NCBI GenBank assembly: GCA_030583745.1 | Contig: CP129473.1 | Span: 552,211-616,210, forward strand | DNA length: 64,000 nucleotides | From: Minisyncoccota bacterium | GTDB lineage: Bacteria; Patescibacteriota; Minisyncoccia; Phycocordibacterales; BOKC01 | Direction of reading: 5' to 3' | Shown: piece after piece, positions 15,902 to 64,000 of the stretch | How positions within the stretch are numbered: position 1 is the stretch's first letter | Layout of the letters: every line of letters begins with the position of its first letter | The notes under the pieces: model-generated | Database searches by the model: none | What the model was told of the DNA's origin: nothing | What the model saw: the letters and a program-made list of their open reading frames with translations, nothing else | Made by a program: the position numbers and the translations under genes

Positions 15902-16351
15902 CTACTCGTTCATTCCCACCATCTTCTTGAGCTCATGCAGTAAGCTCTTCTTCGGATTGGGATTGAGGTCGTTGCTGACGTCCCAACTTGCACCCGAGTG
16001 GATGATATGCAGGATGCGCTCACGCAACTTCATCACATCCTTCGCCGAAGTGCCCTGCACGGTTAAGATCAAGTTTCGAGAGCCGAACCGCAGAAGATGC
16101 TGATCGTTCTGTTCGTACTCCTTGAACCCATTGCGACACACTTGTCCATGTGCGTTGCCGAGGTAGAAGTAAGCTTCCAACGGCTCCTGGGGGCCGCGCC
16201 AACCCTCTCGCGGATCTGTGGAAGAGACATTAATCCCCATCCTCCAACTCACAGTCATCCCCTCCGGAACGACGAAGTCATCCGGCAGGGTGACGAACGA
16301 GAGTTTGCGGACGACTTCTCCTTCGCGATTCAAAAGAACTAGACTCGACAT
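15902..16351 (-). CDS. hypothetical 149-aa protein in a GC-rich (~55%) island; no recognisable family
   Basis: Uninterrupted 149-codon ORF; strong ribosome-binding site (AAAGGAG-7nt-ATG); sigma70-like promoter upstream; composition unlike the host. Confidence 0.6.
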   Translation of the reverse strand: MSSLVLLNREGEVVRKLSFVTLPDDFVVPEGMTVSWRMGINVSSTDPREGWRGPQEPLEAYFYLGNAHGQVCRNGFKEYEQNDQHLLRFGSRNLILTVQGTSAKDVMKLRERILHIIHSGASWDVSNDLNPNPKKSLLHELKKMVGMNE

Positions 16352-16440
16352 GGTACTACTCCTTTCTTCTTTGCGTCTTGAGTTGTCCCAAGATCGCTGA
16401 GTGAAGTGAACAAGCCATCATGGTGATTGCTCTAAATATT

Positions 16441-16468
16441 AGTATAGCAATTTATACTAGTTTGTCAA
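16441..16468 (-). promoter_or_regulatory. sigma70-like promoter TTGACA-N16-TATACT driving the GC-rich gene at 15902..16351
   Basis: Minus-strand reading: ccTTGACAaactagtataaattgcTATACTaat. Confidence 0.55.
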
Positions 16469-16547
16469 GGTTTCGTGAAGATAAAAAACAGCCATATTTC
16501 AGGTCATTTTTCACTCAAAAATCCAATGATTAACTTTTCCAACGCGG

Positions 16548-16619
16548 TGCCCCCGGCAGGAATTGAACCCACATCAACCGGTTCGAAGCCGGTTATTCTA
16601 TCCATTAAACTACGGGGGC
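16548..16619 (-). tRNA. tRNA-Arg (anticodon UCG)
   Basis: Minus-strand GCCCCCG-TA-GTTTAATGGATAGAAT-A-ACCGG-CTTCGAA-CCGGT...GGGTTCAATTCC...CGGGGGC-A-CC; the anticodon loop gives UCG. Confidence 0.8.
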
Positions 16620-19233: not shown

Positions 19234-19425
19234 GGCTAAATGATAACACGGATGAAAATGAAAAACCGACCGCCCTTGTGCTTGGCAGTCTTGGATTCGG
19301 CGGAACCCAGTTTCTCTTTGGAGATTAAGATGACCACAAGCGGTGCCCTATTTTTGGCCATTTTTACACACATCCATTAAATCTAGTAAAAAGTGCCAAA
19401 AGTGTTTAGACATTACCTATTTTAA

Positions 19426-19453
19426 TTGACTTTTTGCTTTGTTTTGCTATAAT
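19426..19453 (+). promoter_or_regulatory. sigma70-like promoter TTGACT-N16-TATAAT
   Basis: aatTTGACTttttgctttgttttgcTATAATaaagg, upstream of the GC-rich lipoprotein gene. Confidence 0.55.
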
Positions 19454-19534
19454 AAAGGTAGATTTTTCGAAAACCTCTTGGACCTTCGGCTTGTTGCTGT
19501 TGGTTTCTTGAGAGACAAGAAAAAGGAGCGGGGA

Positions 19535-19789
19535 ATGAAAAGGCAAAGGCAGAAGTCCGCGCCTTTGGCGGCGGCAGGAACGCTACTGTTCGTGGTCGCG
19601 TTCGGTTCCGGCTGCTCAAATGCCGGGGAAGGTGCCTTGTCTGGCGCCGCGCTCGGGGCTCTGGCTGGAATGGGACTTGGGTCCCTTACCGGTAGCATGG
19701 GGCAGGGCGCGGCCGCCGGTGCGATCATCGGTGGCGTCGGGGGAGCAGTCATCGGCGACCAGAACAGTCGCCAGGAAAGGTACCGTTGA
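19535..19789 (+). CDS. OsmB-like glycine-zipper lipoprotein, GC-rich
   Basis: Lipobox LLFVVAFGSG-C-SN; Gly-zipper GALAGMGLGSLTGSMGQGAAAGAIIGGVGGAVIG; ribosome-binding site AAGGAG-6nt-ATG; ~65% GC over the coding region. Confidence 0.7.
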   Translation: MKRQRQKSAPLAAAGTLLFVVAFGSGCSNAGEGALSGAALGALAGMGLGSLTGSMGQGAAAGAIIGGVGGAVIGDQNSRQERYR

Positions 19790-19885
19790 CCCCGGAAGGG
19801 CTGTCCAGACTGAACCGAAAGGTGAAAGTCTGGCAGCCCCATTTTTTTGAATTGATATTTTATTAAATTATGCTAGAATATAGCT

Positions 19886-21508: not shown

Positions 21509-22218
21509 TGATCAAACAAAAACATCTTTTTATCACTATTCTTGTTTTGGGTCTGTTCACTCTATCTTTACTTGCTGTAGCAGACACCACGAATTCTACA
21601 CAATCTCTTATTTCTAATTCTGAAACAGAAAAAGATGTTGTGGAGGGTAAATCAAAAACCACTAGTTCTAGCGACCCGATTCTCCCAATAATTACTGATA
21701 CACAAAAGCCAGCAACAACCTATACTCACCCAGAACTCGGTTATTCTTTTGAGTATTTATCAGATTGGTTGCTCGGCACTTATAAAAGCAACGGCTATGA
21801 GGCAGTAGGACTATGGGACCCCGTAGCACAACAGCAAGAGGGCGCGGAAGGCCATCTCATACAAGGGGCGAAGATTGAAATATCCACCTGCAACTGCGCT
21901 CCAATAAGTTCTTTCAAAAACACAATCGTAGAACGAACCGGAAAAGGCCCTGAAACAATAACCAGTGTTTCTGAATCAACCCTTAATATTTATAAGGACC
22001 AAACACCAGTATCAGTTGTAAGAGTAGATTACAAAACAGAACTCGGGGGAGGTAAAAGCGTATATTTTGTTGGTAGAGATGGATTGCTTTATGTGCTCAC
22101 TTTAGGGATTCCGAATCTTGAAACTTTGGGAACTGGCCAACTTCAAGAATACAGGTCTGTTTTTGAGGACGTGATTCAATCATTTACCTTTAGCGAAATT
22201 GCTTATGAAAACCACTAA
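21505..22218 (+). CDS. hypothetical secreted protein
   Basis: Signal-peptide-like N-terminus; 237 aa; start and stop overlap the neighbouring genes. Confidence 0.5.
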   Translation: MMIKQKHLFITILVLGLFTLSLLAVADTTNSTQSLISNSETEKDVVEGKSKTTSSSDPILPIITDTQKPATTYTHPELGYSFEYLSDWLLGTYKSNGYEAVGLWDPVAQQQEGAEGHLIQGAKIEISTCNCAPISSFKNTIVERTGKGPETITSVSESTLNIYKDQTPVSVVRVDYKTELGGGKSVYFVGRDGLLYVLTLGIPNLETLGTGQLQEYRSVFEDVIQSFTFSEIAYENH

Positions 22219-25200
22219 GATATTAAGCATAATTTTTGGAACACTCATTTTCTTTGCTGTAGTTTTATCTGTTTTTGCCAACCCAAGAATATTATATCTA
22301 CCTTTTACTGATCTTGAAGTTTTTCTCAAGCACGGATGGTACTATGATGAACAGGAAACAGATGAGCATAAAGGAATAGATTATTTCAAAGGACAGTCAG
22401 GAAACTGGCAAGAGTTTGAAATTCTCGCTGTGGCGGGAGGAGTAGCTGAGTATAGACCAAATGGTAGTCCAACGTGGGGTAATTATGTTGTTATTGACCA
22501 TCAAACCGGCTCACCCCCTTATTATACCGTTTACGCTCATCTAGAAAGCTCACCCTTACCCGCTTATACACAAACGGCAGTTAATGAAGGTGATTTAATA
22601 GGTATTGCTGGTGCTACTGGGTTCACCGATCCACCGGGAACAGTTCATCTACATCTTGAATGGTCAAAGGACGGAATAGGGCAGTTTGGTACTAAACTTG
22701 ATCCTTATGGGATTAAAAAATATTACACATATTATCCTGGTTATCCAAATTTTATAGATTGTGGCATTGACCTTCAAAATCCAGGTGTTTTCTGGTGGAC
22801 AGAATGTCCGCCGATTCCACCTGGTGGAGGCGGGGATGATCCACTTCCGGTAATAAATGTTTCCGGAAATATCACCGAAGACACAACATGGAAAGCGGGG
22901 TATGTGTATTTAATTCAGGGGTCAGTGACGGTGGTTGAAAATGTAACTTTAACTTTAGAGCCCGGAGTAATCGTCAAATTTCAAAACACCTCCTCCCGCT
23001 TCAACATCTACGGAAACCTCTACGCCCAAGGAACCCAACAAAACAAAATCCACTTCACCTCATACAAAGACGATACGGTCGGCGGTGATTCAAACGGAGA
23101 TGGCAACAATTCATCGCCGGCTCCCAGCAATTGGCGGCAAATCACTGTCTTTGAGAATGGTTCAGCCGATCTTTCCCACGCCGTCTTGCGCTATGGCGGC
23201 TACACTTGCGCCTACTGCGGCATCAATCCCGGAGGTCTTTTAGTGGACGGCGGACAACTTACCCTCGCCGACACTTTGATTGAGAAGAACAATTATGGGA
23301 TATATTTCAAAAACATCACCGGCACTACAAGCATTTCCAACTCCACCATTTCTAACAACACTTCTTATGGCATCTTCTCAACCGGCGGCAACCACGACAT
23401 ATATCTCTCCAACTCCACCATCTCCAACCATTCCGATACCGGTATCTATGCTTCCGCCAGCGCCACAACTACTGTTTCGCTTTTGAACAATACTTTCCAG
23501 AACAACCAAACAAGAGACGGTTACTTTTCCATTTCCAACATTAACTTCATCAACCAAGGGAACACTACTTCAGGCACCGGAGGCAACGGCTTCCACATTT
23601 CAGGCACTCTTTTAGGCAACCAAATCTGGAACCCTGGTGTCCCTTACATTATCAGCACCGTCACCTTACCGGCCGATACCACTCTCACAATTAACCCCAA
23701 TACCATCGTCAAATTTCAAAACACCTCCTCCCGCTTCAACATCTACGGAAACCTCTACGCCCAAGGAACCCAACAAAACAAAATCCACTTCACCTCATAC
23801 AAAGACGATACGGTCGGCGGTGATTCAAACGGAGATGGCAACAATTCATCGCCGGCTCCCAGCAATTGGCGGCAAATCACTGTCTTTGAGAATGGTTCAG
23901 CCGATCTTTCCCACGCCGTCTTGCGCTATGGCGGCTACACTTGCGCCTACTGCGGCATCAATCCCGGAGGTCTTTTAGTGGACGGCGGACAACTTACCCT
24001 CGCCGACACTTTGATTGAGAAGAACAATTATGGGATATATTTCAAAAACATCACCGGCACTACAAGCATTTCCAACTCCACCATTTCTAACAACACTTCT
24101 TATGGCATCTTCTCAACCGGCGGCAACCACGACATATATCTCTCCAACTCCACCATCTCCAACCATTCCGATACCGGTATCTATGCTTCCGCCAGCGCCA
24201 CAACTACTGTTTCGCTTTTGAACAATACTTTCCAGAACAACCAAACAAGAGACGGTTACTTTTCCATTTCCAACATTAACTTCATCAACCAAGGGAACAC
24301 TACTTCAGGCACCGGAGGCAACGGCTTCCACATTTCAGGCACTCTTTTAGGCAACCAAATCTGGAACCCTGGTGTCCCTTACATTATCAGCACCGTCACC
24401 TTACCGGCCGATACCACTCTCACAATTAACCCCAATACCATCGTCAAATTTCAAAACACCTCCTCCCGCTTCAACATCTACGGAAACCTCTACGCCCAAG
24501 GAACCCAACAAAACAAAATCTACTTCACCTCATACAAAGACGATACGGTCGGCGGTGATTCAAACGGAGATGGCAACAATTCATCGCCGGCTCCCAGCAA
24601 TTGGCGGCAAATCACTGTCTTTGAGAATGGTTCAGCCGATCTTTCCCACGCCGTCTTGCGCTATGGCGGCTACACTTGCGCCTACTGCGGCATCAATCCC
24701 GGAGGTCTTTTAGTGGACGGCGGACAACTTACCCTCGCCGACACTTTGATTGAGAAGAACAATTATGGGATATATTTCAAAAACATCACCGGCACTACAA
24801 GCATTTCCAACTCCACCATTTCTAACAACACTTCTTATGGCATCTTCTCAACCGGCGGCAACCACGACATATATCTCTCCAACTCCACCATCTCCAACCA
24901 TTCCGATACCGGTATCTATGCTTCCGCCAGCGCCACAACTACTGTTTCGCTTTTGAACAATACTTTCCAGAACAACCAAACAAGAGACGGTTACTTTTCC
25001 ATTTCCAACATTAACTTCATCAACCAAGGGAACACTACTTCAGGCACCGGAGGCAACGGCTTCCACATTTCAGGCACTCTTTTAGGCAACCAAATCTGGA
25101 ACCCTGGTGTCCCTTACATTATCAGCACCGTCACCTTACCGGCCGATACCACTCTCACAATTAACCCCAATACCATCGTCAAATTTCAAAACACCTCCTC

Positions 25201-25756
25201 CCGCTTCAACATCTACGGAAACCTCTACGCCCAAGGAACCCAACAAAACAAAATCTACTTCACCTCTTACCGAGACGACACAATCGGAGGTGACTCCAAC
25301 GGAGATGGCAACAATTCATCGCCGGCTCCCAGCAATTGGCGGCAAATCACTGTCTTTGAGAATGGTTCAGCCGATCTTTCCCACGCCGTCTTGCGCTATG
25401 GCGGCTACACTTGCGCCTACTGCGGCATCAATCCCGGAGGTCTTTTAGTGGACGGCGGACAACTTACCCTCGCCGACACTTTGATTGAGAAGAACAATTA
25501 TGGGATCTACCGGCGGACTAGCGGTAATGTTTCCGTCACTCAAAGCTCAATTAAAGAGAATACCTCCTACGGCATATATCACACCGGCACCGGGACAACG
25601 ACCGCCACTTCAAACTGGTGGGGAGATCCGAGCGGGCCTTATCATCCGCAAAACAATCCAAACGGACAAGGCGACAGAGTCTCAAATAATGTGGAATTCA
25701 GCTCCTGGTTAATTGAGGATCCTTTTTGGAAACAATTTATATTTCCCAAAAAGTAG
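22199..25756 (+). CDS. giant secreted protein: N-terminal M23 (LytM) peptidase domain followed by tandem right-handed beta-helix (NosD/pectin-lyase-like) repeats
   Basis: HKGIDYF...VVIDHQ...HLHLEW M23 zinc-site motifs. Three identical 245-aa repeats rich in NxT/S and I-Y-G/S-N-T-I-S-N rungs. Confidence 0.75.
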   Translation: MLMKTTKILSIIFGTLIFFAVVLSVFANPRILYLPFTDLEVFLKHGWYYDEQETDEHKGIDYFKGQSGNWQEFEILAVAGGVAEYRPNGSPTWGNYVVIDHQTGSPPYYTVYAHLESSPLPAYTQTAVNEGDLIGIAGATGFTDPPGTVHLHLEWSKDGIGQFGTKLDPYGIKKYYTYYPGYPNFIDCGIDLQNPGVFWWTECPPIPPGGGGDDPLPVINVSGNITEDTTWKAGYVYLIQGSVTVVENVTLTLEPGVIVKFQNTSSRFNIYGNLYAQGTQQNKIHFTSYKDDTVGGDSNGDGNNSSPAPSNWRQITVFENGSADLSHAVLRYGGYTCAYCGINPGGLLVDGGQLTLADTLIEKNNYGIYFKNITGTTSISNSTISNNTSYGIFSTGGNHDIYLSNSTISNHSDTGIYASASATTTVSLLNNTFQNNQTRDGYFSISNINFINQGNTTSGTGGNGFHISGTLLGNQIWNPGVPYIISTVTLPADTTLTINPNTIVKFQNTSSRFNIYGNLYAQGTQQNKIHFTSYKDDTVGGDSNGDGNNSSPAPSNWRQITVFENGSADLSHAVLRYGGYTCAYCGINPGGLLVDGGQLTLADTLIEKNNYGIYFKNITGTTSISNSTISNNTSYGIFSTGGNHDIYLSNSTISNHSDTGIYASASATTTVSLLNNTFQNNQTRDGYFSISNINFINQGNTTSGTGGNGFHISGTLLGNQIWNPGVPYIISTVTLPADTTLTINPNTIVKFQNTSSRFNIYGNLYAQGTQQNKIYFTSYKDDTVGGDSNGDGNNSSPAPSNWRQITVFENGSADLSHAVLRYGGYTCAYCGINPGGLLVDGGQLTLADTLIEKNNYGIYFKNITGTTSISNSTISNNTSYGIFSTGGNHDIYLSNSTISNHSDTGIYASASATTTVSLLNNTFQNNQTRDGYFSISNINFINQGNTTSGTGGNGFHISGTLLGNQIWNPGVPYIISTVTLPADTTLTINPNTIVKFQNTSSRFNIYGNLYAQGTQQNKIYFTSYRDDTIGGDSNGDGNNSSPAPSNWRQITVFENGSADLSHAVLRYGGYTCAYCGINPGGLLVDGGQLTLADTLIEKNNYGIYRRTSGNVSVTQSSIKENTSYGIYHTGTGTTTATSNWWGDPSGPYHPQNNPNGQGDRVSNNVEFSSWLIEDPFWKQFIFPKK
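22970..25505. repeat. 735-bp tandem repeat: 3 essentially identical copies (22970, 23705, 24440) plus a diverged partial 4th copy (25175..~25505)
   Basis: Period 735 nt (245 codons). Copies 1-2 differ from copies 3-4 by one SNP (CAC/TAC, His/Tyr). The 4th copy carries a ~40-nt patch with 9 mostly synonymous substitutions. Confidence 0.95.
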
Positions 25757-42880: not shown

Positions 42881-43121
42881 GAAAAAAGCCCGGCGTCCTT
42901 GCGTCCGCCGGGCTTCTGGGGTCTCGCGTAACGCTAGTGCGCGCTGACGCAACCCCATCGCCCAACCTCACTTTCCTGCAAAGTGGGGTGGGCGTGTTGA
43001 GTCGCAACCTCCAGGTCGTGCCCGTTTGACCCGAAGTGAAGAGCTCCGCTGAACTAGGGGCCGTATTGCAGGCAGGCCAATTTCAATGCGTGCTCGTTGC
43101 GACCAACTTAACTTGTTTCTA
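42881..43121 (-). ncRNA. candidate structured non-coding RNA of unknown family (~240 nt, GC-rich) with its own promoter and terminator
   Basis: Minus-strand TTGACA-N17-TAATCT promoter at 43128..43156; long-range helices (GGUCGCAAC/GUUGCGACU); intrinsic terminator GCCCGGCG...CGCCGGGC plus U6 at 42881..42913; no ORF with a ribosome-binding site. Confidence 0.45.
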
Positions 43122-43127
43122 TTTAGG

Positions 43128-43156
43128 AGATTACCACCGTGCCTTTTTCTTGTCAA
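43128..43156 (-). promoter_or_regulatory. sigma70-like promoter TTGACA-N17-TAATCT
   Basis: Minus-strand reading: tctagaTTGACAagaaaaaggcacggtggTAATCTcc. Confidence 0.5.
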
Positions 43157-43197: not shown

Positions 43198-43374
43198 CTT
43201 TTAAAATAGAAAACCCGTCGCGAGGGCATAACTCGCGACGGGTTGTGGAGAAAATGATTAAAGACAGAGGATTCTCCTGTACGGAAGGTGAATGACTTCT
43301 TCCGCACATCCTCTACCTCTTCGTTCGGGGTCACGGCGCAGGGCACAGCCCCAAATCGCTACCCGAACGCTCTG
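43198..43374 (-). ncRNA. candidate structured small RNA of unknown family (~175 nt) with a consensus promoter and an intrinsic terminator
   Basis: Minus-strand TTGACA-N16-TAGAAT promoter at 43381..43408. Nested helices: GACAGAG/CUCUGUC, CGUUCGGG/CCCGAACG, and a 9-bp GUGCGGAAG/CUUCCGUAC helix. Terminator: an 11-bp stem (CCCGTCGCGAG/CTCGCGACGGG) followed by a U-tract. Confidence 0.5.
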
Positions 43375-43380
43375 TCGAAG

Positions 43381-43408
43381 ATTCTATACCTTTTTTTATT
43401 TTTGTCAA
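43381..43408 (-). promoter_or_regulatory. sigma70-like promoter TTGACA-N16-TAGAAT
   Basis: Minus-strand reading: aaatacTTGACAaaaataaaaaaaggtaTAGAATctt. Confidence 0.55.
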
Positions 43409-43574
43409 GTATTTTCAGCTATCTTTCTTCTCTAAGTAGTTAAAACACGCCTTAAAATAAAGCTTTTACAAGGACTACCCTTGGTACAAGGACTACCCTT
43501 GGATTGGGGGGATTGATTGTCTGACTAAGAATTTTCTAGTATTTCCCTAAACCCTAAACCCTAGTCTCTAGACT

Positions 43575-57895: not shown

Positions 57896-58741
57896 ATGAA
57901 AACATTCAAACCGACAACTGCAAGCAGAAGACAAATGTCTATCCCCGGCTTTAAGGGAGTTTTGACATCTAAGAAACCCCAGAAGTCTTTGACTAAAGGC
58001 GGGAAATTGGCTGTTGGGAGAAATAACCAAGGGCGGATTACCACCAGACATAAAGGTGGCGGACACAAGAAAAGATACAGAATGGTTGATTTTGCTTTGA
58101 ATAAAAAAGGAATACCTTTCAAAATAGTTTCTGTTGAATATGATCCTTTCCGGACTGGTTTTATTGGTCTTGCAGTTTTTGCCGATGGAGAAAAGGCATA
58201 CATACTCTTGCCTCAAGGGGTGGTGGCTGGTGAAGAGCTTTTGATTGGGGAAGAAGCTCCTATCAAGGCTGGTAATCGTTTACCTCTTAAGAATCTGGAG
58301 GTTGGAACCTTTGTCTACAATGTTGAATTAAAACCTTCCGGCGGAGCACGCCTTGTGAGAAGCGCGGGAAGTTTTGCTGAAATAGTCGCAAAAGACGCTG
58401 GATATATTGGACTTAAAATGCCTTCGAGCGAAGTGCGTAGGGTGCCAGAAAATTGCTGGGCATCAGTTGGTTCGGTTTCTAATCCGGAAAATCGTTTGGT
58501 AAATATTGGTAAAGCCGGAAGGAGCAGGTGGCTTGGTATCCGTCCGACCGTCAGGGGTTCGGCTATGAATCCGGTTGACCATCCTTATGGTGGAGGTGAA
58601 GGGCGTTCCGGTCGCGGATTAAGAAGGGCTAAAAGCAAATGGGGAAAGCCGACAGGTAAGGGCCAAAAGACCAGAAAAACCAAGAAGTACTCAAATAAGT
58701 TCATAGTTTCCAGAAGGAAGGTCGGCAAGAAGCGCCAATAG
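57896..58741 (+). CDS. rplB: 50S ribosomal protein L2
   Basis: GRNNQGRITTRHKGGGHKKRYR, GNRLPLKNLEVGTFVYNVE. Confidence 0.95.
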   Translation: MKTFKPTTASRRQMSIPGFKGVLTSKKPQKSLTKGGKLAVGRNNQGRITTRHKGGGHKKRYRMVDFALNKKGIPFKIVSVEYDPFRTGFIGLAVFADGEKAYILLPQGVVAGEELLIGEEAPIKAGNRLPLKNLEVGTFVYNVELKPSGGARLVRSAGSFAEIVAKDAGYIGLKMPSSEVRRVPENCWASVGSVSNPENRLVNIGKAGRSRWLGIRPTVRGSAMNPVDHPYGGGEGRSGRGLRRAKSKWGKPTGKGQKTRKTKKYSNKFIVSRRKVGKKRQ

Positions 58742-58812
58742 GACTTTTTGTTTGACAATAAAACGCTTTCTGCTATTCTTTTTATAGCTCGCCATGAGCT
58801 TTTATTTTTAAT

Positions 58813-59166
58813 ATGGTTAGATCATCAAAAAAAGGACCTTACGTTGACCCAAGATTACTGAAGAAGATTTCCGGTAAAAAACCTGATGATGTTGGAGTTA
58901 TCAAGACTTGGTCGCGGGACAGTCAAATTTCACCGGAAATGGTGGGTTTTGCTTTTGGTGTTCATAATGGCAGGGAACATATTGAGGTAAGAGTAAATGA
59001 AGACATGGTCGGACATCGTCTTGGCGAATTCTCTTTGACTAGAAAATTTGTTAAACACGGCGGAAAGATGCAGAAAGATTTGGAGCAGAAAAAGAAAGAA
59101 TCTGAAATAGAGGCGGCAAGAGCGGCAAAGACAAGTGGGGATTCAGCTAAAGCTCCGGGAAAATAA
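58813..59166 (+). CDS. rpsS: 30S ribosomal protein S19 (C-terminal extension)
   Basis: SSKKGPYVD..., ...HNGREHIEV... Confidence 0.9.
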
Positions 59167-59180
59167 TTTAAATAAGGAAC

Positions 59181-59573
59181 ATGAAAACCGTTTCAGCAAA
59201 ACTGAATATGTTGAGGCAGTCGCCGAGAAAAGTCCGATTGGCGGCGGATGCAATTCGCGGCAAGGCGGTTAATGATGCCTTGGTGGCTTTAAGTTTTTTA
59301 AATAAAAGCGCCGCTTCACCGATTAAAAAACTTGTTCAATCAGCCGCGGCTAATGCCAAAGGACTTGGACTTGACCCAGATCAGCTAAAAGTCAAAAAAA
59401 TTTCAGTGGATGCAGGAACGATATTATACCGACGCCGGTTTCGCGCCCGAGGACGAGTTATGCCGGTTCGCAAAAGAACCAGCCATATTTCTTTAGTTTT
59501 GGAAGAAAAACCGATGAAAAAAGATGGCGCGGAAATTATAAGTAGTAAAAAATCCAAGCCAAACAAAAAATAA
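59181..59573 (+). CDS. rplV: 50S ribosomal protein L22
   Basis: ...RQSPRKVRLAADAIRGK... Confidence 0.9.
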   Translation: MKTVSAKLNMLRQSPRKVRLAADAIRGKAVNDALVALSFLNKSAASPIKKLVQSAAANAKGLGLDPDQLKVKKISVDAGTILYRRRFRARGRVMPVRKRTSHISLVLEEKPMKKDGAEIISSKKSKPNKK

Positions 59574-59577
59574 ATTT

Positions 59578-60255
59578 ATGCCGCACAATGTTCATCCTTA
59601 TGCTCATAGAATTGGAATTTTAAGAGGTTGGAAGTCTCAATGGTTTGGCTTGAAGCAGAAATATACCGATTCTTTAAGAAGCGACCTTCTGATTAGAGAC
59701 TTTCTAAAGAAAAGGTTGAAAGGATTTTATATTGCGAACGTTATAATTGAAAGAAATCAAAAAATTTTGAAAGTCGTTATCGAGACTTCAAGACCGGGCT
59801 TAATTATAGGCCGGAGTGGAGAAGGTGCCGCTAAACTGAAAGAAGAATTGGTCAAGAAGATTAGAAAGGCCGGTTTTTCTTCGGAAGCGCAGGAGTTAAA
59901 GATCGATATTAAAGAAGTGAAATCTCCAGAATCAAACGCCGCTATTGTCAGTCAAATGATCGCTGAAGGTTTGGAGAAAAGAATGCCTTTTCGTCGAGTA
60001 ATAAAGCAGACCCTGGACAAAGTAATGGCTAATCGAGATGTAATTGGTGCAAAGATTCAGCTTTCAGGCCGTTTAGGTGGCGCAACAATGTCCAGAAAGG
60101 AGAGCAAAAAAGCCGGTAGAATTCCTCTTCAGACTTTTCGCGCTGATGTTGATTTTGCGAGACAAGAAGCCGTGTTGCCTTACGGTAACTTGGGAATAAA
60201 AGTCTGGATTTACAGAGGAGATATCTTTGAGGAGAAAGGTGCAAAAAGTAATTAG
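59578..60255 (+). CDS. rpsC: 30S ribosomal protein S3
   Basis: KH domain plus S3 C-terminal domain (...GAKIQLSGRLGGA...). Confidence 0.95.
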   Translation: MPHNVHPYAHRIGILRGWKSQWFGLKQKYTDSLRSDLLIRDFLKKRLKGFYIANVIIERNQKILKVVIETSRPGLIIGRSGEGAAKLKEELVKKIRKAGFSSEAQELKIDIKEVKSPESNAAIVSQMIAEGLEKRMPFRRVIKQTLDKVMANRDVIGAKIQLSGRLGGATMSRKESKKAGRIPLQTFRADVDFARQEAVLPYGNLGIKVWIYRGDIFEEKGAKSN

Positions 60256-60339
60256 CCCAATGTAGTTTTGAGATACCATTACACAGAATTTATTTAGAGC
60301 AACTGTTTCCAATAGAGTAATAAAAATAATTTAAAAATC

Positions 60340-60759
60340 ATGCTGTTCCCAAAGAAAGTAAAATACAGAAAGTGGCACACTTTTCGAGAAAATCCTAAAA
60401 AAGTAAAAATTGCCACTCGCGGAACGGAAGTCTCTTTCGGCTCTTTCGGTCTGAAAGCGACAACCACATCTCGCATCAGGTCTAATCAAATAGAATCAGC
60501 CAGAAAAACAATCTCTCGAGCTATCGGCAAGACCGGAAAAATGTGGATTCGTATTTTTCCTGACATGCCCTTCACCTCTAAACCGGCTGAAGTTAAGATG
60601 GGTAAGGGTAAGGGAGACATTCAAGGATATCAGGTCCAAATAAGGCCCGGACGAATTCTTTTCGAGGTTGATGGAGTTTCTGCTGAAGTTGCGGCTGAAG
60701 CTTTGCGTAAGGGTGGTACGAAATTACCAGTCAAAACTAAAGTGGTCAGCCGTTTGTAA
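60340..60759 (+). CDS. rplP: 50S ribosomal protein L16
   Basis: MLFPKKVKYRKWH... Confidence 0.95.
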   Translation: MLFPKKVKYRKWHTFRENPKKVKIATRGTEVSFGSFGLKATTTSRIRSNQIESARKTISRAIGKTGKMWIRIFPDMPFTSKPAEVKMGKGKGDIQGYQVQIRPGRILFEVDGVSAEVAAEALRKGGTKLPVKTKVVSRL

Positions 60760-60763
60760 TTTT

Positions 60764-60952
60764 ATGGCGTTTAAACAAGACACAAAAGAATTAATAAAAA
60801 TGTTGGCGGAGAAAAAAGAAGCTTTGAGAAATTTTCGCTTTAACATCGCCGGAGGAAAAATCAGAAATACCAAAGAAGGTCGGGACTTGAGGAAAGAGAT
60901 TGCCAGAATTCTTACGGAGTTGCACCAAAGAGAGATTAATGTTAAGAAATAG
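60764..60952 (+). CDS. rpmC: 50S ribosomal protein L29
   Basis: MAFKQDTKELIKMLAEKKEALRNFRFN...; start taken at the internal ATG 60764 of the longer ORF track entry. Confidence 0.85.
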   Translation: MAFKQDTKELIKMLAEKKEALRNFRFNIAGGKIRNTKEGRDLRKEIARILTELHQREINVKK

Positions 60953-61200
60953 TGCTTATGGATCAAGAGAAAACAACAAAAAGGAAAGTCTTGTCTGGGG
61001 TTGTGGTTTCAGACAAAATGAAAGACACAATCGTTGTTAAAGTTCAGCGTTTTGTTAAACATCCTAAATTTGGTAAATACGTTAAGATAAACAAGAAGTT
61101 TAAAGCCCACGATGCTGGTAATAGTAAAAAAATTGGAGACAAGGTTTCAATTGAAGAATGCCGTCCAATTAGTAAAGACAAGCATTTCAAAGTAATTTAA
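60952..61200 (+). CDS. rpsQ: 30S ribosomal protein S17
   Basis: ...KVLSGVVVSDKMKDTIVVKVQRFVKHPKFGKY... Confidence 0.9.
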   Translation: MLMDQEKTTKRKVLSGVVVSDKMKDTIVVKVQRFVKHPKFGKYVKINKKFKAHDAGNSKKIGDKVSIEECRPISKDKHFKVI

Positions 61201-61259
61201 GTTCTGTCGTTTAAAACCACTGGTTTCAAATCATAGAATCCGAAATTTAAAATTAAAAC

Positions 61260-61631
61260 ATGCTTCAACCTCGTTCAATCGTAAATATCACCGACAATTC
61301 CGGCGCCAAAATCGGCCGAGTTTTTAAGATTTTAGGTGGTTCTAAAAGAAGATATGCGCAGATTGGAGATGTTTTGGTTTTATCAGTTCAGAAAGCCGAA
61401 CCAAGAAAGGCGGTCAAGAAAAAGGATGTTTTGAGAGCAGTGGTTGTTAGGCAGAAGAAACCTTATCGACGCTCTGATGGGTCATATGTGCGTTTTGACG
61501 ATAATGCAGTAGTTATTTTAGAGAAAGAGAAGAATGAGCCAATTGCCGGACGCGTATTCGGTCCGATTCCAAGAGAGATAGGTGAAAGAGGATTTCAAAA
61601 GATTGTTTCTTTGGCACCGGAAATCGTATAA
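61260..61631 (+). CDS. rplN: 50S ribosomal protein L14
   Basis: MLQPRSIVNITDNSGAK... Confidence 0.95.
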   Translation: MLQPRSIVNITDNSGAKIGRVFKILGGSKRRYAQIGDVLVLSVQKAEPRKAVKKKDVLRAVVVRQKKPYRRSDGSYVRFDDNAVVILEKEKNEPIAGRVFGPIPREIGERGFQKIVSLAPEIV

Positions 61632-61657
61632 CACAAGTTGCCAAGAATATTTGTAAT

Positions 61658-61966
61658 ATGAAAATAAAAAAAGGAGACACAGTAAAAATAATTGCCGGAA
61701 AAGATAAAGGAAAATCGGGAAAAGTTGAAAGGGTTTTAACCGACAACAATAAAGTAATTATCCCGGGCCTTAACTTGTTTAAGTCGCACCAAAGACCAAA
61801 AAAACAAGGTCAAAAAGGGCAGATGGTTGATAAAAGTATGCCAATTCATATTTCCAATGTTATGTTTGTGGATCCTAAAAGCCAGAAACCTACAAGAATC
61901 GGAAAACGTTCAGAAAATGGCCGAATGAAAAGATATGCCAAAAAAAGCGGGCAATTAATTGATTAG
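61658..61966 (+). CDS. rplX: 50S ribosomal protein L24
   Basis: MKIKKGDTVKIIAGKDKGKSGKV... Confidence 0.9.
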   Translation: MKIKKGDTVKIIAGKDKGKSGKVERVLTDNNKVIIPGLNLFKSHQRPKKQGQKGQMVDKSMPIHISNVMFVDPKSQKPTRIGKRSENGRMKRYAKKSGQLID

Positions 61967-61976
61967 TTAAAAGATT

Positions 61977-62510
61977 ATGACTCAAATTGCGCAAAAATTG
62001 GAAAAGACCTTTGAAGCTTTGAAGCCAGCTATGGGCTATCAAGGCCAGATGCAAGCGCCTCGGTTAGAGAAGGTGGTTTTGAGTGTCGGCGTTGGATCTG
62101 TAAAAGACAAGAAGAAGCTTGAGGTTATTGAAGATCGATTAGCAAAAATAACTGGTCAAAAACCATCTCCTAGACCAGCAAAGATTTCTATAGCTAATTT
62201 TAAATCAAGACAAGGTGAAATTGTTGGTTACCAGATTACTTTAAGGGGTAAGAGAATGATAGATTTTTTGGAGAGATTTATCAGAATAGCCCTGCCTCGC
62301 TCCAAAGATTTCAAAGGTATTTCCTCTGATTTTCTTGACGATATAGGCAATTTGACTATCGGCATTAAAGAACACACCATTTTTCCTGAAACTTCTGATG
62401 AAGATATAAAGGATGTTTTTGGTTTGGCAGTGACGATTGTAACTACAGCCAAAAATAAGCCAGAAGCCGAAGCGTTTTTCAGACACCTCGGTTTACCTTT
62501 TAAAAAATAG
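61977..62510 (+). CDS. rplE: 50S ribosomal protein L5
   Basis: ...GYQITLRGKRMIDFLERFI... Confidence 0.95.
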   Translation: MTQIAQKLEKTFEALKPAMGYQGQMQAPRLEKVVLSVGVGSVKDKKKLEVIEDRLAKITGQKPSPRPAKISIANFKSRQGEIVGYQITLRGKRMIDFLERFIRIALPRSKDFKGISSDFLDDIGNLTIGIKEHTIFPETSDEDIKDVFGLAVTIVTTAKNKPEAEAFFRHLGLPFKK

Positions 62511-62596
62511 GGATTGGGGTATAGCCAATAGTTCGGGTTTGTTGATTTATCAAATTGAGAATTTTTGATTTCGCATCATTCTGCGCAAAATTTTTA

Positions 62597-62624
62597 TTGA
62601 CAAATAAATTAGTTATGATAGAAT
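62597..62624 (+). promoter_or_regulatory. sigma70-like promoter TTGACA-N16-TAGAAT immediately downstream of rplE
   Basis: tattTTGACAaataaattagttatgaTAGAATag. Confidence 0.55.
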
Positions 62625-62660
62625 AGAAAAGGATGTTATTTTACATTGTCGTTGCAAACG

Positions 62661-62770
62661 GGCAGGAAAATGTGTCTTAAGGACTCATTTTCCTGCCTGT
62701 GTTGGGCTGGATTTCCCGAAAGTGTCGACGGGCCAAGGGGAACTTGGAAAATCGACACAAGTATCTTCGC
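62661..62770 (+). promoter_or_regulatory. structured 5' leader: perfect 12-bp stem hairpin plus a second nested hairpin, upstream of the GC-rich gene
   Basis: GGCAGGAAAATG-tgtcttaaggact-CATTTTCCTGCC; then GTGTCGAC...(CCAAGG-ggaa-CTTGG)...TCGACAC. Confidence 0.5.
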
Positions 62771-62795
62771 CTCCAGGTGAGGCAAGGAGAAAGTC

Positions 62796-63245
62796 ATGAG
62801 GTATCTCAGTGAGAAGCGTCGTCAGCGGTTCGCCCGGGAATTTCCGGGGTTGGATCAGATCCCCGGTTTCAAATGGGCGTCGATCAAGAAGTTCGACGTC
62901 CAGCGTGTCAGTCCGTTCCTTCTTCAGGGAGGAGGGATTATCATGGATGATCACAGAACGGTCTTCTACGTTGTCTACAATGGAGCGATGACGCGCCTGG
63001 ATGCCAATGTGATCTTCGATCCTTCCTCTGATCGGCGGCCGAGCATTTACGTGCGGTCTAATGGAGAGCAGATTTTTCAGATCAGTTCCAGACCGCCAGA
63101 CTTCATCGTTGAGATCCGCAGCGAATGGGATTCCCACGGTAATTCCATTGATGTCTGCATTATCTACAAGGCCGACAAGTTCGACTGGGATGGATACTTC
63201 AAGCGTTTCGAGCCTGGACCGGAGAAGTTCGAGCAGTTCGTCTGA
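62796..63245 (+). CDS. hypothetical 149-aa protein, GC-rich (~54%), no recognisable family
   Basis: Ribosome-binding site AAGGAG-6nt-ATG; uninterrupted ORF; followed by an intrinsic terminator; enterobacterial-style codon choices (CGT, CGG, CTG, CCG). Confidence 0.6.
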   Translation: MRYLSEKRRQRFAREFPGLDQIPGFKWASIKKFDVQRVSPFLLQGGGIIMDDHRTVFYVVYNGAMTRLDANVIFDPSSDRRPSIYVRSNGEQIFQISSRPPDFIVEIRSEWDSHGNSIDVCIIYKADKFDWDGYFKRFEPGPEKFEQFV

Positions 63246-63294
63246 TGACAGCCAGCAACGGCAAAACGTTCTCGATTGACGTCTAAACAATCGA

Positions 63295-63326
63295 AGCCCC
63301 GACCATCTGGCCGGGGTTTTCTTTTG
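63295..63326 (+). terminator. rho-independent terminator
   Basis: AGCCCCGACC-atctg-GCCGGGGTT followed by a T-tract. Confidence 0.65.
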
Positions 63327-63407
63327 TATTTTCCTAAACCCTACACCCCAAACCCTAAACCTCACTGGCTATACCCCAGACCCTATACCCTAATTTAAGA
63401 CCTACGG

Positions 63408-63489
63408 CAAGGTTAAACCTCCCAGAGAAAATACTGCTTAACAAAGCGATATTTTTCTTACACCTAATTGTCAAGGTTTAACCTTGACA
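63408..63489. promoter_or_regulatory. two operator-like palindromes (AGGTTAAACCT at 63410..63420; TGTCAAGGTT-T-AACCTTGACA at 63469..63489) upstream of the terminal membrane-protein gene
   Basis: Perfect 21-nt palindrome and a related 11-nt palindrome ~60 nt apart; a TTGACA -35 box at 63511..63516 follows. Confidence 0.5.
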
Positions 63490-63650
63490 GTGCTTACGCC
63501 TTTATTTTTCTTGACATTGCAATTAAATTGTACTATCCTTAAAAAGGATACGGAAAAACATGTGGTTTTCCGACAAAGTTTGTCATCCGGTTTGCCTAGC
63601 TCCATGTAGGAGTTAGCGCTGAAATAGTCAAGAGACAAAAGGAGATAAAG

Positions 63651-64000
63651 ATGAAGAATCTGTGGATTTGTACGACCAGGATCTTTCTGTTTCAGATCTT
63701 GGTTGGTGGAGTGACGTTCGGTATGACCGGCGATGTTGCACTTGCGGCTACCGCGGTCATCATCATGACCGCCGCCGCGGTCATTGTCACCGCCCTCTCT
63801 GCAATCTCCACAACCGCCACCTACGCTGATCTTTTAACCACTCTTGCCGCTCTCATCGCCGCCTTCGCTGCCCATGCCGCTCTCATCGCCGCTTTCGCCT
63901 TCATCGAACTCGCCGCCTTCGTCATCGCCGCCCTCGTCTTCGTCATCGCCAAAAACGCGAGGGAAAACGGAGCCAAGGAGCCGTTCTGGGCTCTGTGGCT
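63651..64000 (+). CDS. GC-rich hydrophobic (multi-TM, Ala/Ile/Thr-rich) membrane protein, 5' part only; runs off the window end
   Basis: Manual translation from ATG 63651 gives MKNLWICTTRIFLFQILVGGVTFGMTGDVALAATAVIIMTAAAVIVTALSAISTTATYADLLTTLAALIAAFAAHAALIAAFAFIELAAFVIAALVFVIAKNARENG...; ribosome-binding site AAAGGAG-7nt-ATG. Absent from the ORF track because it is incomplete. Confidence 0.55.
   Translation, partial: MKNLWICTTRIFLFQILVGGVTFGMTGDVALAATAVIIMTAAAVIVTALSAISTTATYADLLTTLAALIAAFAAHAALIAAFAFIELAAFVIAALVFVIAKNARENGAKEPFWALW

What the first reader, a model, noticed from the sequence alone, without database searches (positions are those of the whole stretch)
62597..64000. GC-rich two-gene module with promoter, structured leader and operator palindromes, replacing rpsN/rpsH after rplE
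The collinear rpsL...rplE cluster stops at 62510, where S14/S8/L6 would be expected. In their place there is a near-consensus promoter (TTGACA-N16-TAGAAT) and a ~160-nt leader with a perfect 12-bp hairpin. A 149-aa GC-rich ORF with an ideal AGGAG ribosome-binding site follows, and then a terminator. Next come two palindromic operator-like sites (AGGTTAAACCT; TGTCAAGGTT-T-AACCTTGACA) and a second promoter. A GC-rich, Ala/Ile/Thr-rich membrane protein gene begins at 63651 and is cut by the window end. Neither protein shows a family signature I recognise. Composition and codon choice (~54% GC; CGT, CTG, CCG) are foreign to the host. An acquired regulated small-protein plus membrane-protein pair, placed inside the most conserved operon, is an obvious candidate for an undescribed accessory system (toxin/immunity, phage-exclusion or transporter-type module). 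An assembly chimera is the alternative explanation.
Basis: partly seen in the sequence, partly recalled or inferred. Interest (0 to 1): 0.7.

Follow-up and report, generated by a model that had tools for sequence, protein, structure and literature searches.

The report
Strain-variable gene cassette with novel leader RNA
Between two ribosomal-protein genes of a tiny Paceibacterota (CPR) bacterium sit two self-contained, foreign-looking gene cassettes; one couples an undescribed, extremely conserved folded RNA leader to a protein with no detectable relatives outside its own small family, and that protein differs sharply between otherwise identical strains.

Summary
The framing is partly wrong. 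Nothing is replaced: rpsN, rpsH, rplF and the genes up to secY follow intact about 1.8 kb after rplE, behind their own conserved promoter. The junctions recur in more than 12 independent assemblies, so this is not a chimera. The two ORFs are not a pair. Each is an independent promoter-leader-ORF-terminator unit, and each occurs without the other in other genomes. Cassette A is the interesting one. Its roughly 155-nt leader matches no Rfam family, and 22 of 44 base pairs show compensatory changes. An invariant hairpin (CCAAG-GNGAA-CUUGG) and a possible CCCG/CGGG pseudoknot sit next to a hairpin that sequesters the Shine-Dalgarno site. The leader is 95% identical between genomes whose rplE is 68% identical. 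The 149-aa ORF behind it is only 43-58% identical in the same comparisons. In 99-100% identical strains the ORF alone drops to 57-76% nucleotide identity. The protein family is rare, unannotated, GC3-rich, and matches no known family or solved fold. My best reading is a moron-like accessory cassette whose translation is gated by a new cis-regulatory RNA, with alleles swapped by recombination. Its function is probably conflict-related, but that is inferred.

The parts
61977..62510 (+). rplE (L5). It is the last gene of the upstream half of the spc cluster and forms the left flank of the insertion.
   Evidence: ORF list and the Pfam labels of the identical gene in L001.
62507..62527 (.). Left copy of an ACCCTA-rich repeat (TAGGGATTGGGGTATAGCCA). 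It is inverted relative to 63366-63386 and overlaps the rplE stop codon.
   Evidence: 21-nt inverted repeat, 90% complementary (I1). The exact 12-mer core occurs only at these two places in the window.
62597..62624 (+). Promoter of cassette A (TTGACA-N16-TGaTAGAAT).
   Evidence: Matches 11 of 12 positions, with an extended -10. The hexamers are kept while the spacer diverges in L008, L027, L031 and L042.
62643..62798 (+). Leader-A RNA motif, in this order:
- P1 long hairpin: 62658-62700
- CCCG: 62715-62718
- P2 stem: 62722-62728 paired with 62752-62758
- CGGG: 62729-62732
- Invariant P2b hairpin CCAAG-GGGAA-CUUGG: 62733-62747
- Anti-SD UAUCUU: 62762-62767
- P3 hairpin: 62769-62783
- SD AAGGAG: 62784-62789
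   Evidence: RNAalifold and pair counts give 94.8% of cells paired. 22 of 44 pairs carry compensatory changes, against 8.9 in shuffles and 1-6 in slid controls. The covariance-model match scores 176 bits. No Rfam hit.
62796..63245 (+). ORF-A, 149 aa (WKZ26393.1, 'hypothetical protein'). It is soluble, belongs to a rare orphan family, and is hypervariable between strains.
   Evidence: - dN/dS is about 0.3-0.45, with an excess of third-position changes.
- The family has 11 representatives among 1.84 billion proteins and 22 clusters.
- The AF2 model has pLDDT 83.9, with no fold or family match.
- Strain comparison.
63246..63325 (+). 3' UTR of cassette A:
- GCAACGGCAA (63255-63264) is predicted to pair with the 5' end of the leader (62646-62655).
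- A conserved hairpin spans 63272-63294.
- The intrinsic terminator spans 63296-63325.
   Evidence: It is conserved in L008, L027, L028 and L031, with compensatory changes in the hairpin in L028. The long-range stem appears in both the MFE and the centroid of the whole mRNA, z = -7.06.
63334..63396 (.). ACCCTA-rich repeat cluster at the boundary between the cassettes. Its 3' part (63366-63396) recurs as a direct repeat after cassette B (L001 6117-6147).
   Evidence: The same arrangement occurs in L028.
63408..63489 (.). Two palindromic sites (CAAGGTTAAACCT at 63408-63420; TGTCAAGGTTTAACCTTGACA at 63469-63489) upstream of promoter B. Their role is unexplained; they could be an operator or a recombination site.
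   Evidence: They are absent from the distant ORF-B locus L018.
63511..63539 (+). Promoter of cassette B (TTGACA-N17-TATCCT).
   Evidence: Matches 10 of 12 positions. It aligns with the promoter region of the L018/L025 homologues.
63546..63650 (+). Leader B:
- Hairpin 63551-63572
- Invariant palindrome GACAAAGTTTGTC at 63572-63584
- Hairpin 63594-63619
- SD at 63639-63644
   Evidence: Fold z = -2.6. There is one compensatory pair in each hairpin between two lineages only, so the evidence is modest.
63651..64000 (+). ORF-B, 146 aa in full (WKZ26394.1), cut by the window end. It is an Ala/Thr/Ile-rich polytopic membrane protein with conserved ends and a repeat-like variable middle. A terminator, a third promoter and rpsN follow beyond the window.
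   Evidence: - Full gene in L001 5600-6040.
- Hydropathy.
- Homologues P0004 and P0005 at 44-45% identity.
- AF2 gave only pLDDT 59.
- rpsN promoter at L001 6149-6176.

Best explanation
The region is the first 1.4 kb of a roughly 1.8-kb island inserted at the rplE|rpsN junction of a Candidatus Paceibacterota genome. The island holds two independent, self-contained accessory cassettes of the 'moron' type: own promoter, 5' leader, one GC-rich ORF, own terminator. The downstream ribosomal genes are intact and are served by their own conserved promoter.

Cassette A is a conserved partnership between a new structured 5' leader and a rare family of roughly 150-aa soluble proteins with no fold match.

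Shown:
- The leader adopts a P1/P2/P2b/P3 architecture maintained by compensatory substitutions.
- It has an invariant hairpin and an invariant CCCG/CGGG pair of tetramers that can form an H-type pseudoknot.
- Its last hairpin pairs the Shine-Dalgarno sequence.
- Among the loci recovered through ORF-A homologues, it always sits directly in front of the homologue, whatever the genomic context.
- It is far more conserved than the ORF or even the ribosomal-protein genes.
- ORF-A alleles differ by dS of about 1 in strains that are otherwise 99-100% identical, and mosaics exist. Alleles are therefore replaced by homologous recombination from a diverse pool.

Inferred:
- The leader is a cis-acting translational gate that keeps the ribosome-binding site closed until a trans factor binds the P2/P2b/pseudoknot core. 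I favour feedback binding by the conserved face of the ORF-A protein itself. A small-molecule ligand comes second.
- The conserved UTRs double as homology arms for allele exchange.
- The allele turnover reflects frequency-dependent selection on a conflict-type function, such as phage or competitor interaction.

Cassette B is an unrelated small membrane-protein cassette that landed next to cassette A.
For: Layout and reality of the insertion:
- Layout.
- Independent assemblies and the 692-kb MAG.
- The two cassettes occur independently of each other.
- Own promoters and terminators.
- rpsN promoter and leader conserved in L027.
- Composition: GC3 of 0.66 and 0.71 against 0.31-0.37.

Leader RNA:
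- Structure and covariation.
- G-U pairs on the sense strand only.
- Covariance-model hits occur only immediately 5' of ORF-A homologues. They include members not used for training (L037, L039, L044; E about 1e-7). There is a single copy in the window.
- No Rfam match.
- Conservation contrast between L001 and L027: leader 94.8%, rplE 67.6%, ORF-A 62% nt and 43% aa.

ORF-A:
- Strain contrast between L001 and L028: flanks 99-100%, ORF-A 57-76%.
- Mosaic allele in L012.
- Coding under purifying selection.
- Orphan status.
- A family member sits in a phage/MGE-like contig, L036.
- The published definition of a moron is an inserted element with its own promoter and terminator and a GC content different from its neighbours (PMC3594210).
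Against: - No experiment or transcript data were available. Promoters, the transcription start and the terminators are all predictions.
- The pseudoknot and the P2b hairpin never vary, so covariation neither supports nor refutes them.
- Nothing shows what binds the leader, or that anything does.
- The loci used to define the association between leader and ORF-A were fetched through ORF-A homologues or one leader 21-mer. Leaders in front of other genes could have been missed.
- The conflict-type function rests only on the allele-turnover pattern and one or two MGE contexts. PADLOC and PHROGs gave no hit, and IMG/VR holds no relative.
- No empty rplE|rpsN site from a close relative was recovered, so the direction of events (insertion versus ancestral presence) is inferred from the canonical operon order.
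Confidence: 0.55

Rival explanations
1. The leader is a small-molecule or ion riboswitch of a new class. Ligand binding to the pseudoknotted P2/P2b core opens or closes the SD-sequestering hairpin, and ORF-A acts on or responds to that ligand.
For: - The architecture is aptamer-like: covarying stems surround invariant junction nucleotides, followed by an SD-sequestering hairpin.
- Conservation exceeds that of the ribosomal-protein genes.
- No Rfam family matches.
Against: - In this sample the leader is tied to a single protein family, which is more typical of autogenous protein-binding leaders.
- The regulated protein is hypervariable between strains, which is unusual for metabolic or transport genes.
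- The invariant 5-bp P2b stem suggests base-specific recognition of a helix.
Confidence: 0.25
2. The conserved 5' and 3' UTRs are mainly mRNA stability or processing elements and DNA-level homology arms, with no sensing function. A closed-loop mRNA with 5'-3' pairing would protect a highly expressed transcript and allow cassette exchange.
For: - A predicted 17-bp long-range 5'-3' stem is present in both the MFE and the centroid, z = -7.06.
- One position in that stem changes C:G, U:G, U:A across L001, L028 and L027.
- Recombination breakpoints fall at the UTR/CDS borders.
Against: - A stability element would not need an invariant 22-nt core kept across members as distant as 25% protein identity.
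- The long-range stem is seen only in the closest group of loci.
- The SD-sequestering P3 hairpin points to translational control.
Confidence: 0.15
3. ORF-A plus ORF-B form a functional two-gene system (toxin/immunity, phage exclusion, or a small protein plus its membrane partner).
For: They are adjacent, on the same strand and of similar composition, in the window, in L012-L017 and in L028/L029.
Against: - Each has its own promoter and terminator.
- Each occurs without the other in every other lineage examined.
- There are no PADLOC, Pfam or NCBIfam hits.
- The allele-replacement tract covers ORF-A but not ORF-B.
Confidence: 0.04
4. It is an assembly chimera or misjoin at the rplE boundary.
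For: None beyond the compositional break.
Against: - The same junctions appear in more than 12 independent assemblies from different sequencing runs.
- The same junctions appear in NCBI contigs JAANMX010001126 and JAANMY010003830.
- The locus lies on a 691,769-bp MAG contig carrying consecutive locus tags.
- A second species (L027, a 404-kb contig) carries cassette A at the same site.
Confidence: 0.01

Closest known systems
Phage 'morons' (for example the HK97 gene 15 element)
   Same: An independent transcription unit with its own promoter and terminator, a GC content unlike its neighbours, and a position between two genes that are adjacent in the canonical order. It is spread by horizontal transfer (definition from PMC3594210; features).
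   Different: It sits in a bacterial chromosome inside the spc ribosomal-protein cluster, not in a prophage. It carries an elaborate, strongly conserved structured leader and a conserved 3' UTR. Its alleles are exchanged in place.
Autogenous ribosomal-protein leaders (for example S8 control of the spc operon) and other protein-binding 5' leaders
   Same: A structured 5' leader tied to one gene family, ending in a structure that occludes the ribosome-binding site. In two species it lies physically in the spc cluster.
   Different: The leader travels with ORF-A to non-ribosomal contexts: upstream of alaS, next to a tRNA or tmRNA gene 3' end, and in an island near recJ. ORF-A is not a ribosomal protein. 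No rRNA mimicry was shown.
Orphan riboswitch candidates tied to one gene of unknown function (for example the yjdF motif)
   Same: A conserved, covarying RNA fold found almost exclusively upstream of one uncharacterised protein family (PMC4793209 abstract as listed).
   Different: There is no match to any Rfam model. The downstream gene is hypervariable and compositionally foreign. The ligand, if any, is unknown.
Integron gene cassettes
   Same: Small single-ORF units stacked head to tail at one site, flanked by short repeats.
   Different: Each unit has its own promoter and terminator. No attC-type site or integrase was seen. The flanking ACCCTA-rich repeats resemble the native rpsN leader or spacer sequence.

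Membership tests
Moron-type independent accessory cassette | Own promoter and own terminator | tested here: met
   Consensus scans and visible hairpin plus U-run terminators. These are predictions only.
Moron-type independent accessory cassette | Nucleotide composition different from the flanking genes | tested here: met
   GC3 of 0.66 and 0.71 against 0.31-0.37. GC profile.
Moron-type independent accessory cassette | Present or absent between genes that are adjacent in related genomes | tested here: inconclusive
   Cassette B is absent from L027 at the same site.
Moron-type independent accessory cassette | Resides in a phage or prophage genome | tested here: not met
   It is flanked by ribosomal-protein genes on a 692-kb chromosome-scale contig. 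Only a distant family member lies in a phage/MGE-like contig.
Riboswitch (any described class) | Match to a curated covariance model | tested here: not met
   No relevant Rfam 15 hit at E <= 1 in 58000-64000, and none at gathering score across the window.
Riboswitch (generic) | Conserved aptamer fold supported by covariation, plus an expression platform | tested here: met
   22 of 44 pairs are compensatory. The SD is paired in P3 or an equivalent hairpin in all 9 sequences.
Riboswitch (generic) | Direct, specific ligand binding | not testable with these tools
   Needs in-line probing, ITC or a reporter assay.
Two-gene toxin-antitoxin, toxin-immunity or defence module | Conserved co-occurrence of the two genes | tested here: not met
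   ORF-A occurs without ORF-B, and ORF-B without ORF-A, in all other lineages examined.
Two-gene toxin-antitoxin, toxin-immunity or defence module | Homology to known defence, toxin or immunity families | tested here: not met
   No hits in PADLOC, Pfam, NCBIfam or PHROGs.
Type III toxin-antitoxin (RNA antitoxin) | Tandemly repeated antitoxin RNA upstream of the toxin gene, separated from it by a terminator | tested here: not met
   The leader has no tandem repeats and there is no terminator before the ORF.
Integron cassette | Promoterless ORF with an attC site, next to an integrase | tested here: not met
   Both cassettes carry their own promoters. The flanking repeats are ACCCTA-rich direct and inverted repeats, not attC-like. 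An integrase was not searched for outside the window.
spc-operon autoregulatory leader (binding site for a ribosomal protein) | Leader linked to ribosomal-protein genes wherever it occurs | tested here: not met
   The same leader precedes ORF-A homologues in non-ribosomal contexts.

The most novel reading that the evidence does not exclude
Leader A plus ORF-A is an undescribed single-gene conflict system of CPR bacteria. A new class of pseudoknotted sensor RNA would respond to an infection- or stress-derived ligand or to the protein itself. It would gate a strain-variable effector of an unrecognised fold, and alleles would be swapped through ultraconserved UTRs acting as built-in recombination arms. 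The system would be parked in the ribosomal-protein cluster, where it cannot easily be lost.
Probability: 0.2. Interest if true: 0.8.

Novelty: new variant of a known kind. Interest (0 to 1): 0.6.

Why it matters
- CPR/Patescibacteria genomes are small and mostly unculturable, so their accessory biology is hard to study directly. Here a single locus combines three things that can be followed up directly.
- First, there is a well-supported new structured RNA motif with an obvious regulatory read-out: occlusion of the Shine-Dalgarno site.
- Second, there is a rare protein family with a confident AF2 model that matches no solved structure.
- Third, there is a sharply bounded allele-replacement hotspot in the middle of the most conserved gene cluster of the genome.
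- If the leader turns out to bind a ligand or its own product, it adds a new riboregulator class.
- If the allele turnover reflects phage or competitor pressure, it gives a handle on conflict systems in an episymbiotic lineage where known defence families are scarce.
- The locus also shows that the spc cluster is transcriptionally split in this lineage. The rpsN-to-secY part has its own conserved promoter and leader.

Tried and rejected
- **Assembly chimera:** rejected.
- **Loss or replacement of rpsN/rpsH:** rejected.
- **Paired toxin/immunity module:** rejected on distribution.
- **DGR-type mutagenesis as the source of ORF-A variation:** rejected. Differences include indels, affect all codon positions and include many synonymous third-position changes. 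The L012 mosaic tract matches another allele. No reverse transcriptase or template repeat was seen in the window region.
- **Antisense 226-aa ORF (62685-63365, minus strand) as the real gene:** rejected. The plus-strand frame shows dN/dS below 1 and is preceded by a conserved RBS.
- **Collection searches that returned nothing useful:** INPHARED phages; IMG/VR with leader patterns and protein profiles (one search failed for lack of a conserved stretch); GTDB genomes with a protein profile and a leader 21-mer.
- **Unavailable or unusable:** the AFDB Foldseek library was not available. AF2 of ORF-B was too poor to use (pLDDT 59).
- **Literature:** searches found no description of such a locus.
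- **Small GGG/CCC hairpin proposed by RNAalifold (columns 75-79 with 89-93):** set aside. 4 of 9 sequences break it without compensation. The invariant CCCG/CGGG pairing is offered in its place but is unproven.
Full report
**1. What is in the sequence**

The window ends in the S10/spc ribosomal-protein cluster of an AT-rich genome (40.8% GC). rplE ends at 62510.
- Promoter TTGACA-N16-TAGAAT at 62597-62624, matching 11 of 12 positions with a TG extended -10.
- A leader that folds far better than shuffles (z = -5.5) and contains a perfect 12-bp hairpin.
- A 149-aa ORF at 62796-63245 behind AAGGAG.
- A hairpin plus U-run terminator at 63296-63325.
- Two related palindromes at 63408-63420 and 63469-63489.
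- A second promoter at 63511-63539.
- A membrane-protein ORF from 63651 that runs off the window.

The compositional break is real. GC3 is 0.66 for ORF-A and 0.71 for ORF-B, against 0.31-0.37 for the neighbouring ribosomal-protein genes and about 0.36 for the EF-Tu gene.

**2. The window is cut in mid-island, and nothing is replaced**

Exact-protein look-up of ORF-A returned six independent Logan assemblies, the longest 12.8-12.9 kb. In L001 the order is:
- rplE
- cassette A (ORF-A, 149 aa)
- cassette B (ORF-B, 146 aa, with its terminator)
- a third promoter, TTGACA-16-TATTCT
- rpsN (Zn-ribbon S14, 61 aa; the gene caller missed it, but it is visible in the ORF list)
- rpsH, rplF, rplR, rpsE, rplO, secY, adk, map

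The island is therefore a roughly 1.8-kb insertion between rplE and rpsN. The same junctions occur in six more assemblies carrying a 91%-identical allele, and in NCBI metagenome contigs JAANMX010001126 and JAANMY010003830. The exact proteins are WKZ26392-WKZ26394 (locus tags QY304_03305 and QY304_03310, 'hypothetical protein') on a 691,769-bp contig of a Candidatus Paceibacterota MAG. A chimera is excluded as far as assemblies can show.

**3. Two independent cassettes, not a pair**

- A 48%-identical ORF-A homologue lies upstream of alaS (L007/L008).
- A 39%-identical one lies at the same rplE|rpsN site of another species, with no ORF-B (L027, on a 404-kb contig).
- More distant ones lie in an island of small GC-rich units near recJ (L031), directly after the 3' end of a tRNA or tmRNA gene (L034), and next to a DHDPS gene or a peptidase M50 gene.
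- ORF-B homologues (44-45% identity) sit alone between an aminoacyl-tRNA synthetase gene and a peptidase M16 gene.

Each unit has its own promoter and terminator. In both the window species and L027 the rpsN promoter and a leader of about 90 nt are conserved. The spc cluster is therefore transcriptionally split at this point, which explains why terminator-bearing inserts are tolerated here.

**4. The leader of cassette A is a new, strongly supported structured RNA**

Aligning cassette A from the window with the 48%-identical homologue shows a striking pattern. The promoter spacer and the coding region have diverged, while the 5' UTR and the 3' UTR are almost unchanged.

Nine leaders from different loci were aligned, and the alignment gives this consensus:
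- **P1:** a long hairpin with a variable loop. 15 of its 19 pairs carry compensatory changes.
- **Linker:** ends in an invariant CCCG.
- **P2:** a 7-bp stem, with 6 of 7 pairs compensatory (for example GUCGA:UCGAC against AGCUA:UAGCU).
- **Core enclosed by P2:** an invariant CGGG, the invariant hairpin CCAAG-GNGAA-CUUGG, and an A-rich strand.
- **P3:** a hairpin whose extension pairs UAUCUU with the AAGGAG Shine-Dalgarno sequence. In the two most divergent leaders a different hairpin still covers the SD.

Overall 94.8% of cells are paired and 22 of 44 pairs are compensatory. The shuffles give 8.9 (sd 2.1), with 0 of 500 reaching the observed value, and the slid controls give 1-6. Many G-U pairs occur on the sense strand, so this is RNA, not a DNA cruciform. 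CCCG and CGGG can form an H-type pseudoknot with P2. They never vary, so this is a proposal, not a finding. The small GGG/CCC hairpin that RNAalifold offers in its place is broken in 4 of 9 sequences.

Rfam 15 has no match. A covariance model built from the nine sequences behaves as follows:
- It finds exactly one copy in the 64-kb window.
- It finds every known instance.
- It finds three leaders not used for training (L037, L039, L044; E about 1e-7).
- Every one of these matches ends at the start codon of an ORF-A homologue.
- It finds none in the two phage/MGE-like contigs (L036, L040).

Caveat: these loci were collected through ORF-A homologues or one leader 21-mer, so the exclusivity of the association is provisional.

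**5. Conservation contrasts**

| Comparison | Region | Identity |
|---|---|---|
| Window genome vs L027 | rplE | 67.6% nt |
| | rplX | 61% nt |
| | rpsN | 73% nt |
| | ORF-A | 62% nt, 43% aa |
| | Leader A | 94.8% nt |
| | 3' UTR | 85.7% nt |
| L001 vs L028, same species, 9 kb of flanks | Flanks | 99-100% nt |
| | ORF-A tract, about 62700-63350 | 57-76% nt |
| | Middle of ORF-B | dips to 92% nt |

ORF-A alleles have dS of about 1.0 and dN/dS of about 0.3, so this is an old, purifying-selected divergence.

The L012 allele is identical to the window everywhere except the first 110 nt or so of the CDS. There it resembles the L008 allele, so it is a mosaic.

Together these results show that divergent ORF-A alleles are swapped into an otherwise clonal background by homologous recombination, with breakpoints at or near the conserved UTRs. 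All alleles keep high GC3 (0.52-0.69) whatever the host.

**6. The whole mRNA**

Folding the predicted transcript (62631-63325) gives z = -7.06. In both the MFE and the centroid there is a 17-bp closing stem between the extreme 5' end (GGAUGUU...UUGUCGUUGC) and the 3' UTR (GCAACGGCAAAACGUUC). Within its 10-bp core, one position reads C:G, U:G and U:A in L001, L028 and L027. This is suggestive but thin, and it is limited to the closest group of loci. The 3' UTR also holds a conserved hairpin with compensatory changes in L028.

**7. The proteins**

The ORF-A family is small:
- 11 representatives at E <= 1e-3 among 1.84 billion proteins.
- 22 clusters at 90% identity, mostly on short contigs.
- No Pfam, PHROGs, PADLOC or NCBIfam hit.

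The N-terminal helix (R-E-F...L) and the C-terminal half (G-x-Q, PD[FY]IV, IYK, FD) are conserved. The middle is variable.

AF2 with 23 sequences gives a confident alpha/beta model (pLDDT 83.9, pTM 0.77). It has no significant neighbour in any structure library searched:
- PDB by Foldseek: best E 0.046, TM 0.21.
- BFVD: best E 5e-3, TM 0.40, to uncharacterised phage proteins.
- PDB by profile: no hit.

One distant member, carrying an inserted zinc ribbon, lies in a 38-kb contig with a C5-methyltransferase, a RuvC-like gene, an ORF6N protein and a metallophosphatase, which makes it phage- or MGE-like. Another is flanked by pentapeptide-repeat proteins. No relatives were found in INPHARED or IMG/VR.

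ORF-B is a 146-aa protein rich in Ala, Leu, Thr and Ile. It has several hydrophobic stretches, conserved ends (MKxLW...FLFQ...GG...TGD; ARxNGAKEPFWALWLTA...GVGT...GG) and a repeat-like middle that expands and contracts. AF2 was uninformative for it. Its leader shows two hairpins, each with one compensatory pair, and an invariant GACAAAGTTTGTC. Only two lineages are available, so the support is modest.

**8. Boundaries**

ACCCTA-rich repeats mark the cassette borders:
- An inverted pair flanks cassette A (62507-62527 and 63366-63386, 19 of 21 complementary).
- A direct repeat of 30-38 bp flanks cassette B.

Similar sequence forms part of the conserved rpsN leader, and one more cluster in the window lies next to another GC-rich unit at about 43,550. 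The simplest reading is that the cassettes entered the native spacer with duplication of spacer sequence. A site-specific recombination role is possible but untested. The two palindromes upstream of promoter B are real but unexplained.

**9. Interpretation**

Shown:
- This is a real insertion island made of two independent units.
- Leader A is a new covarying RNA fold that occludes the SD.
- The leader is tightly linked to a rare family with no recognisable fold.
- The leader is extremely conserved while the ORF undergoes allele replacement.

Inferred:
- The leader gates translation in response to a trans factor. I favour feedback by ORF-A's conserved face, for three reasons: the leader is linked to a single family, a helix is invariant, and the partner gene is hypervariable and probably non-metabolic. 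A small-molecule riboswitch comes second, and a pure stability or recombination-arm role third.
- Allele turnover points to a conflict-type function.

In kind, the cassettes behave like phage morons (PMC3594210) but sit in a chromosome. The RNA behaves like an autogenous leader or an orphan riboswitch but belongs to no described class.

**10. Verdict**

The 'replacement', 'two-gene module' and 'chimera' readings are rejected. The finding is not ordinary. It is a new variant of known kinds of element: a moron-like cassette combined with a cis-regulatory leader. Both the RNA motif and the protein family are undescribed, and their function is still unknown. Interest is about 0.6.

Noticed in passing
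window 42885-43135 (minus strand): A GC-rich stretch of about 250 nt with its own TTGACA-type promoter (about 43160) and a strong terminator (about 42890). It folds with z = -7.2 and has no credible Rfam hit. It is a candidate unannotated structured ncRNA. The listed 113-aa ORF over it is probably spurious.
   Followed up: partly
window 43210-43410 (minus strand): A second tiny unit just upstream: promoter TTGACA-N17-TATAGAAT, a short GC-rich transcript and a terminator. It could be a small RNA or a micro-ORF. It is flanked by a CCCTAAACCCTAAACCC repeat at 43545-43561.
   Followed up: no
window 15860-16475 (minus strand): Another GC-rich promoter-leader-ORF-terminator cassette (149 aa, MSSLVLLNREGE...) lies immediately downstream of tRNA-Arg (16546-16619). 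It has the same build as the cassettes studied but an unrelated protein (no BLASTP similarity).
   Followed up: partly
window 19425-19845 (plus strand): A GC-rich (up to 68%) cassette encoding a small lipoprotein-like, glycine-zipper protein, with its own promoter and terminator.
   Followed up: no
window 13539-14002: A tandem repeat of 148 bp in 3.1 copies, 99% identical. Its end overlaps the tRNA-Gly(TCC) gene at 13983-14055. It generates long spurious ORFs.
   Followed up: no
window 22199-25756: A 1185-aa ORF contains three equally long internal ORFs in another frame, spaced 735 nt apart (23637, 24372, 25107). This suggests a large protein with long, near-identical internal repeats.
   Followed up: no
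L001 6149-6266 and L027 (minus strand) about 620-720: A promoter (TTGACA-16-TATTCT) and a leader of about 90 nt ending in CCCTAGTCGCTAAACCCTAGTT precede rpsN. They are about 95% conserved between species whose rplE is 68% identical. This is a possible autoregulatory leader for the rpsN-to-secY half of the spc cluster.
   Followed up: partly
L001 7795-8808: rpsE is followed directly by rplO, with no rpmD (L30) gene between them. Absence of L30 is, to my knowledge, a reported hallmark of CPR bacteria. It fits the Paceibacterota assignment.
   Followed up: no
L031 3990-5763: Upstream of the ORF-A homologue in this Hainich groundwater contig lies a run of other small GC-rich units, each with its own terminator, and an AT-rich HExxH protein. 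The site looks like a cassette-accumulating island between a TrmB-like regulator gene and recJ.
   Followed up: no
L040 184-1915; L036 375-3044: In MGE-like contigs the ORF-A homologues lack the leader. They are flanked by pentapeptide-repeat proteins (L040) or by small acidic proteins (L036).
   Followed up: no
window 63572-63584: GACAAAGTTTGTC, a perfect 6+1+6 palindrome inside leader B, is invariant between the window and the distant L018/L025 homologues. Its loop is too short for an RNA hairpin, so it may be a DNA-level protein site.
   Followed up: no
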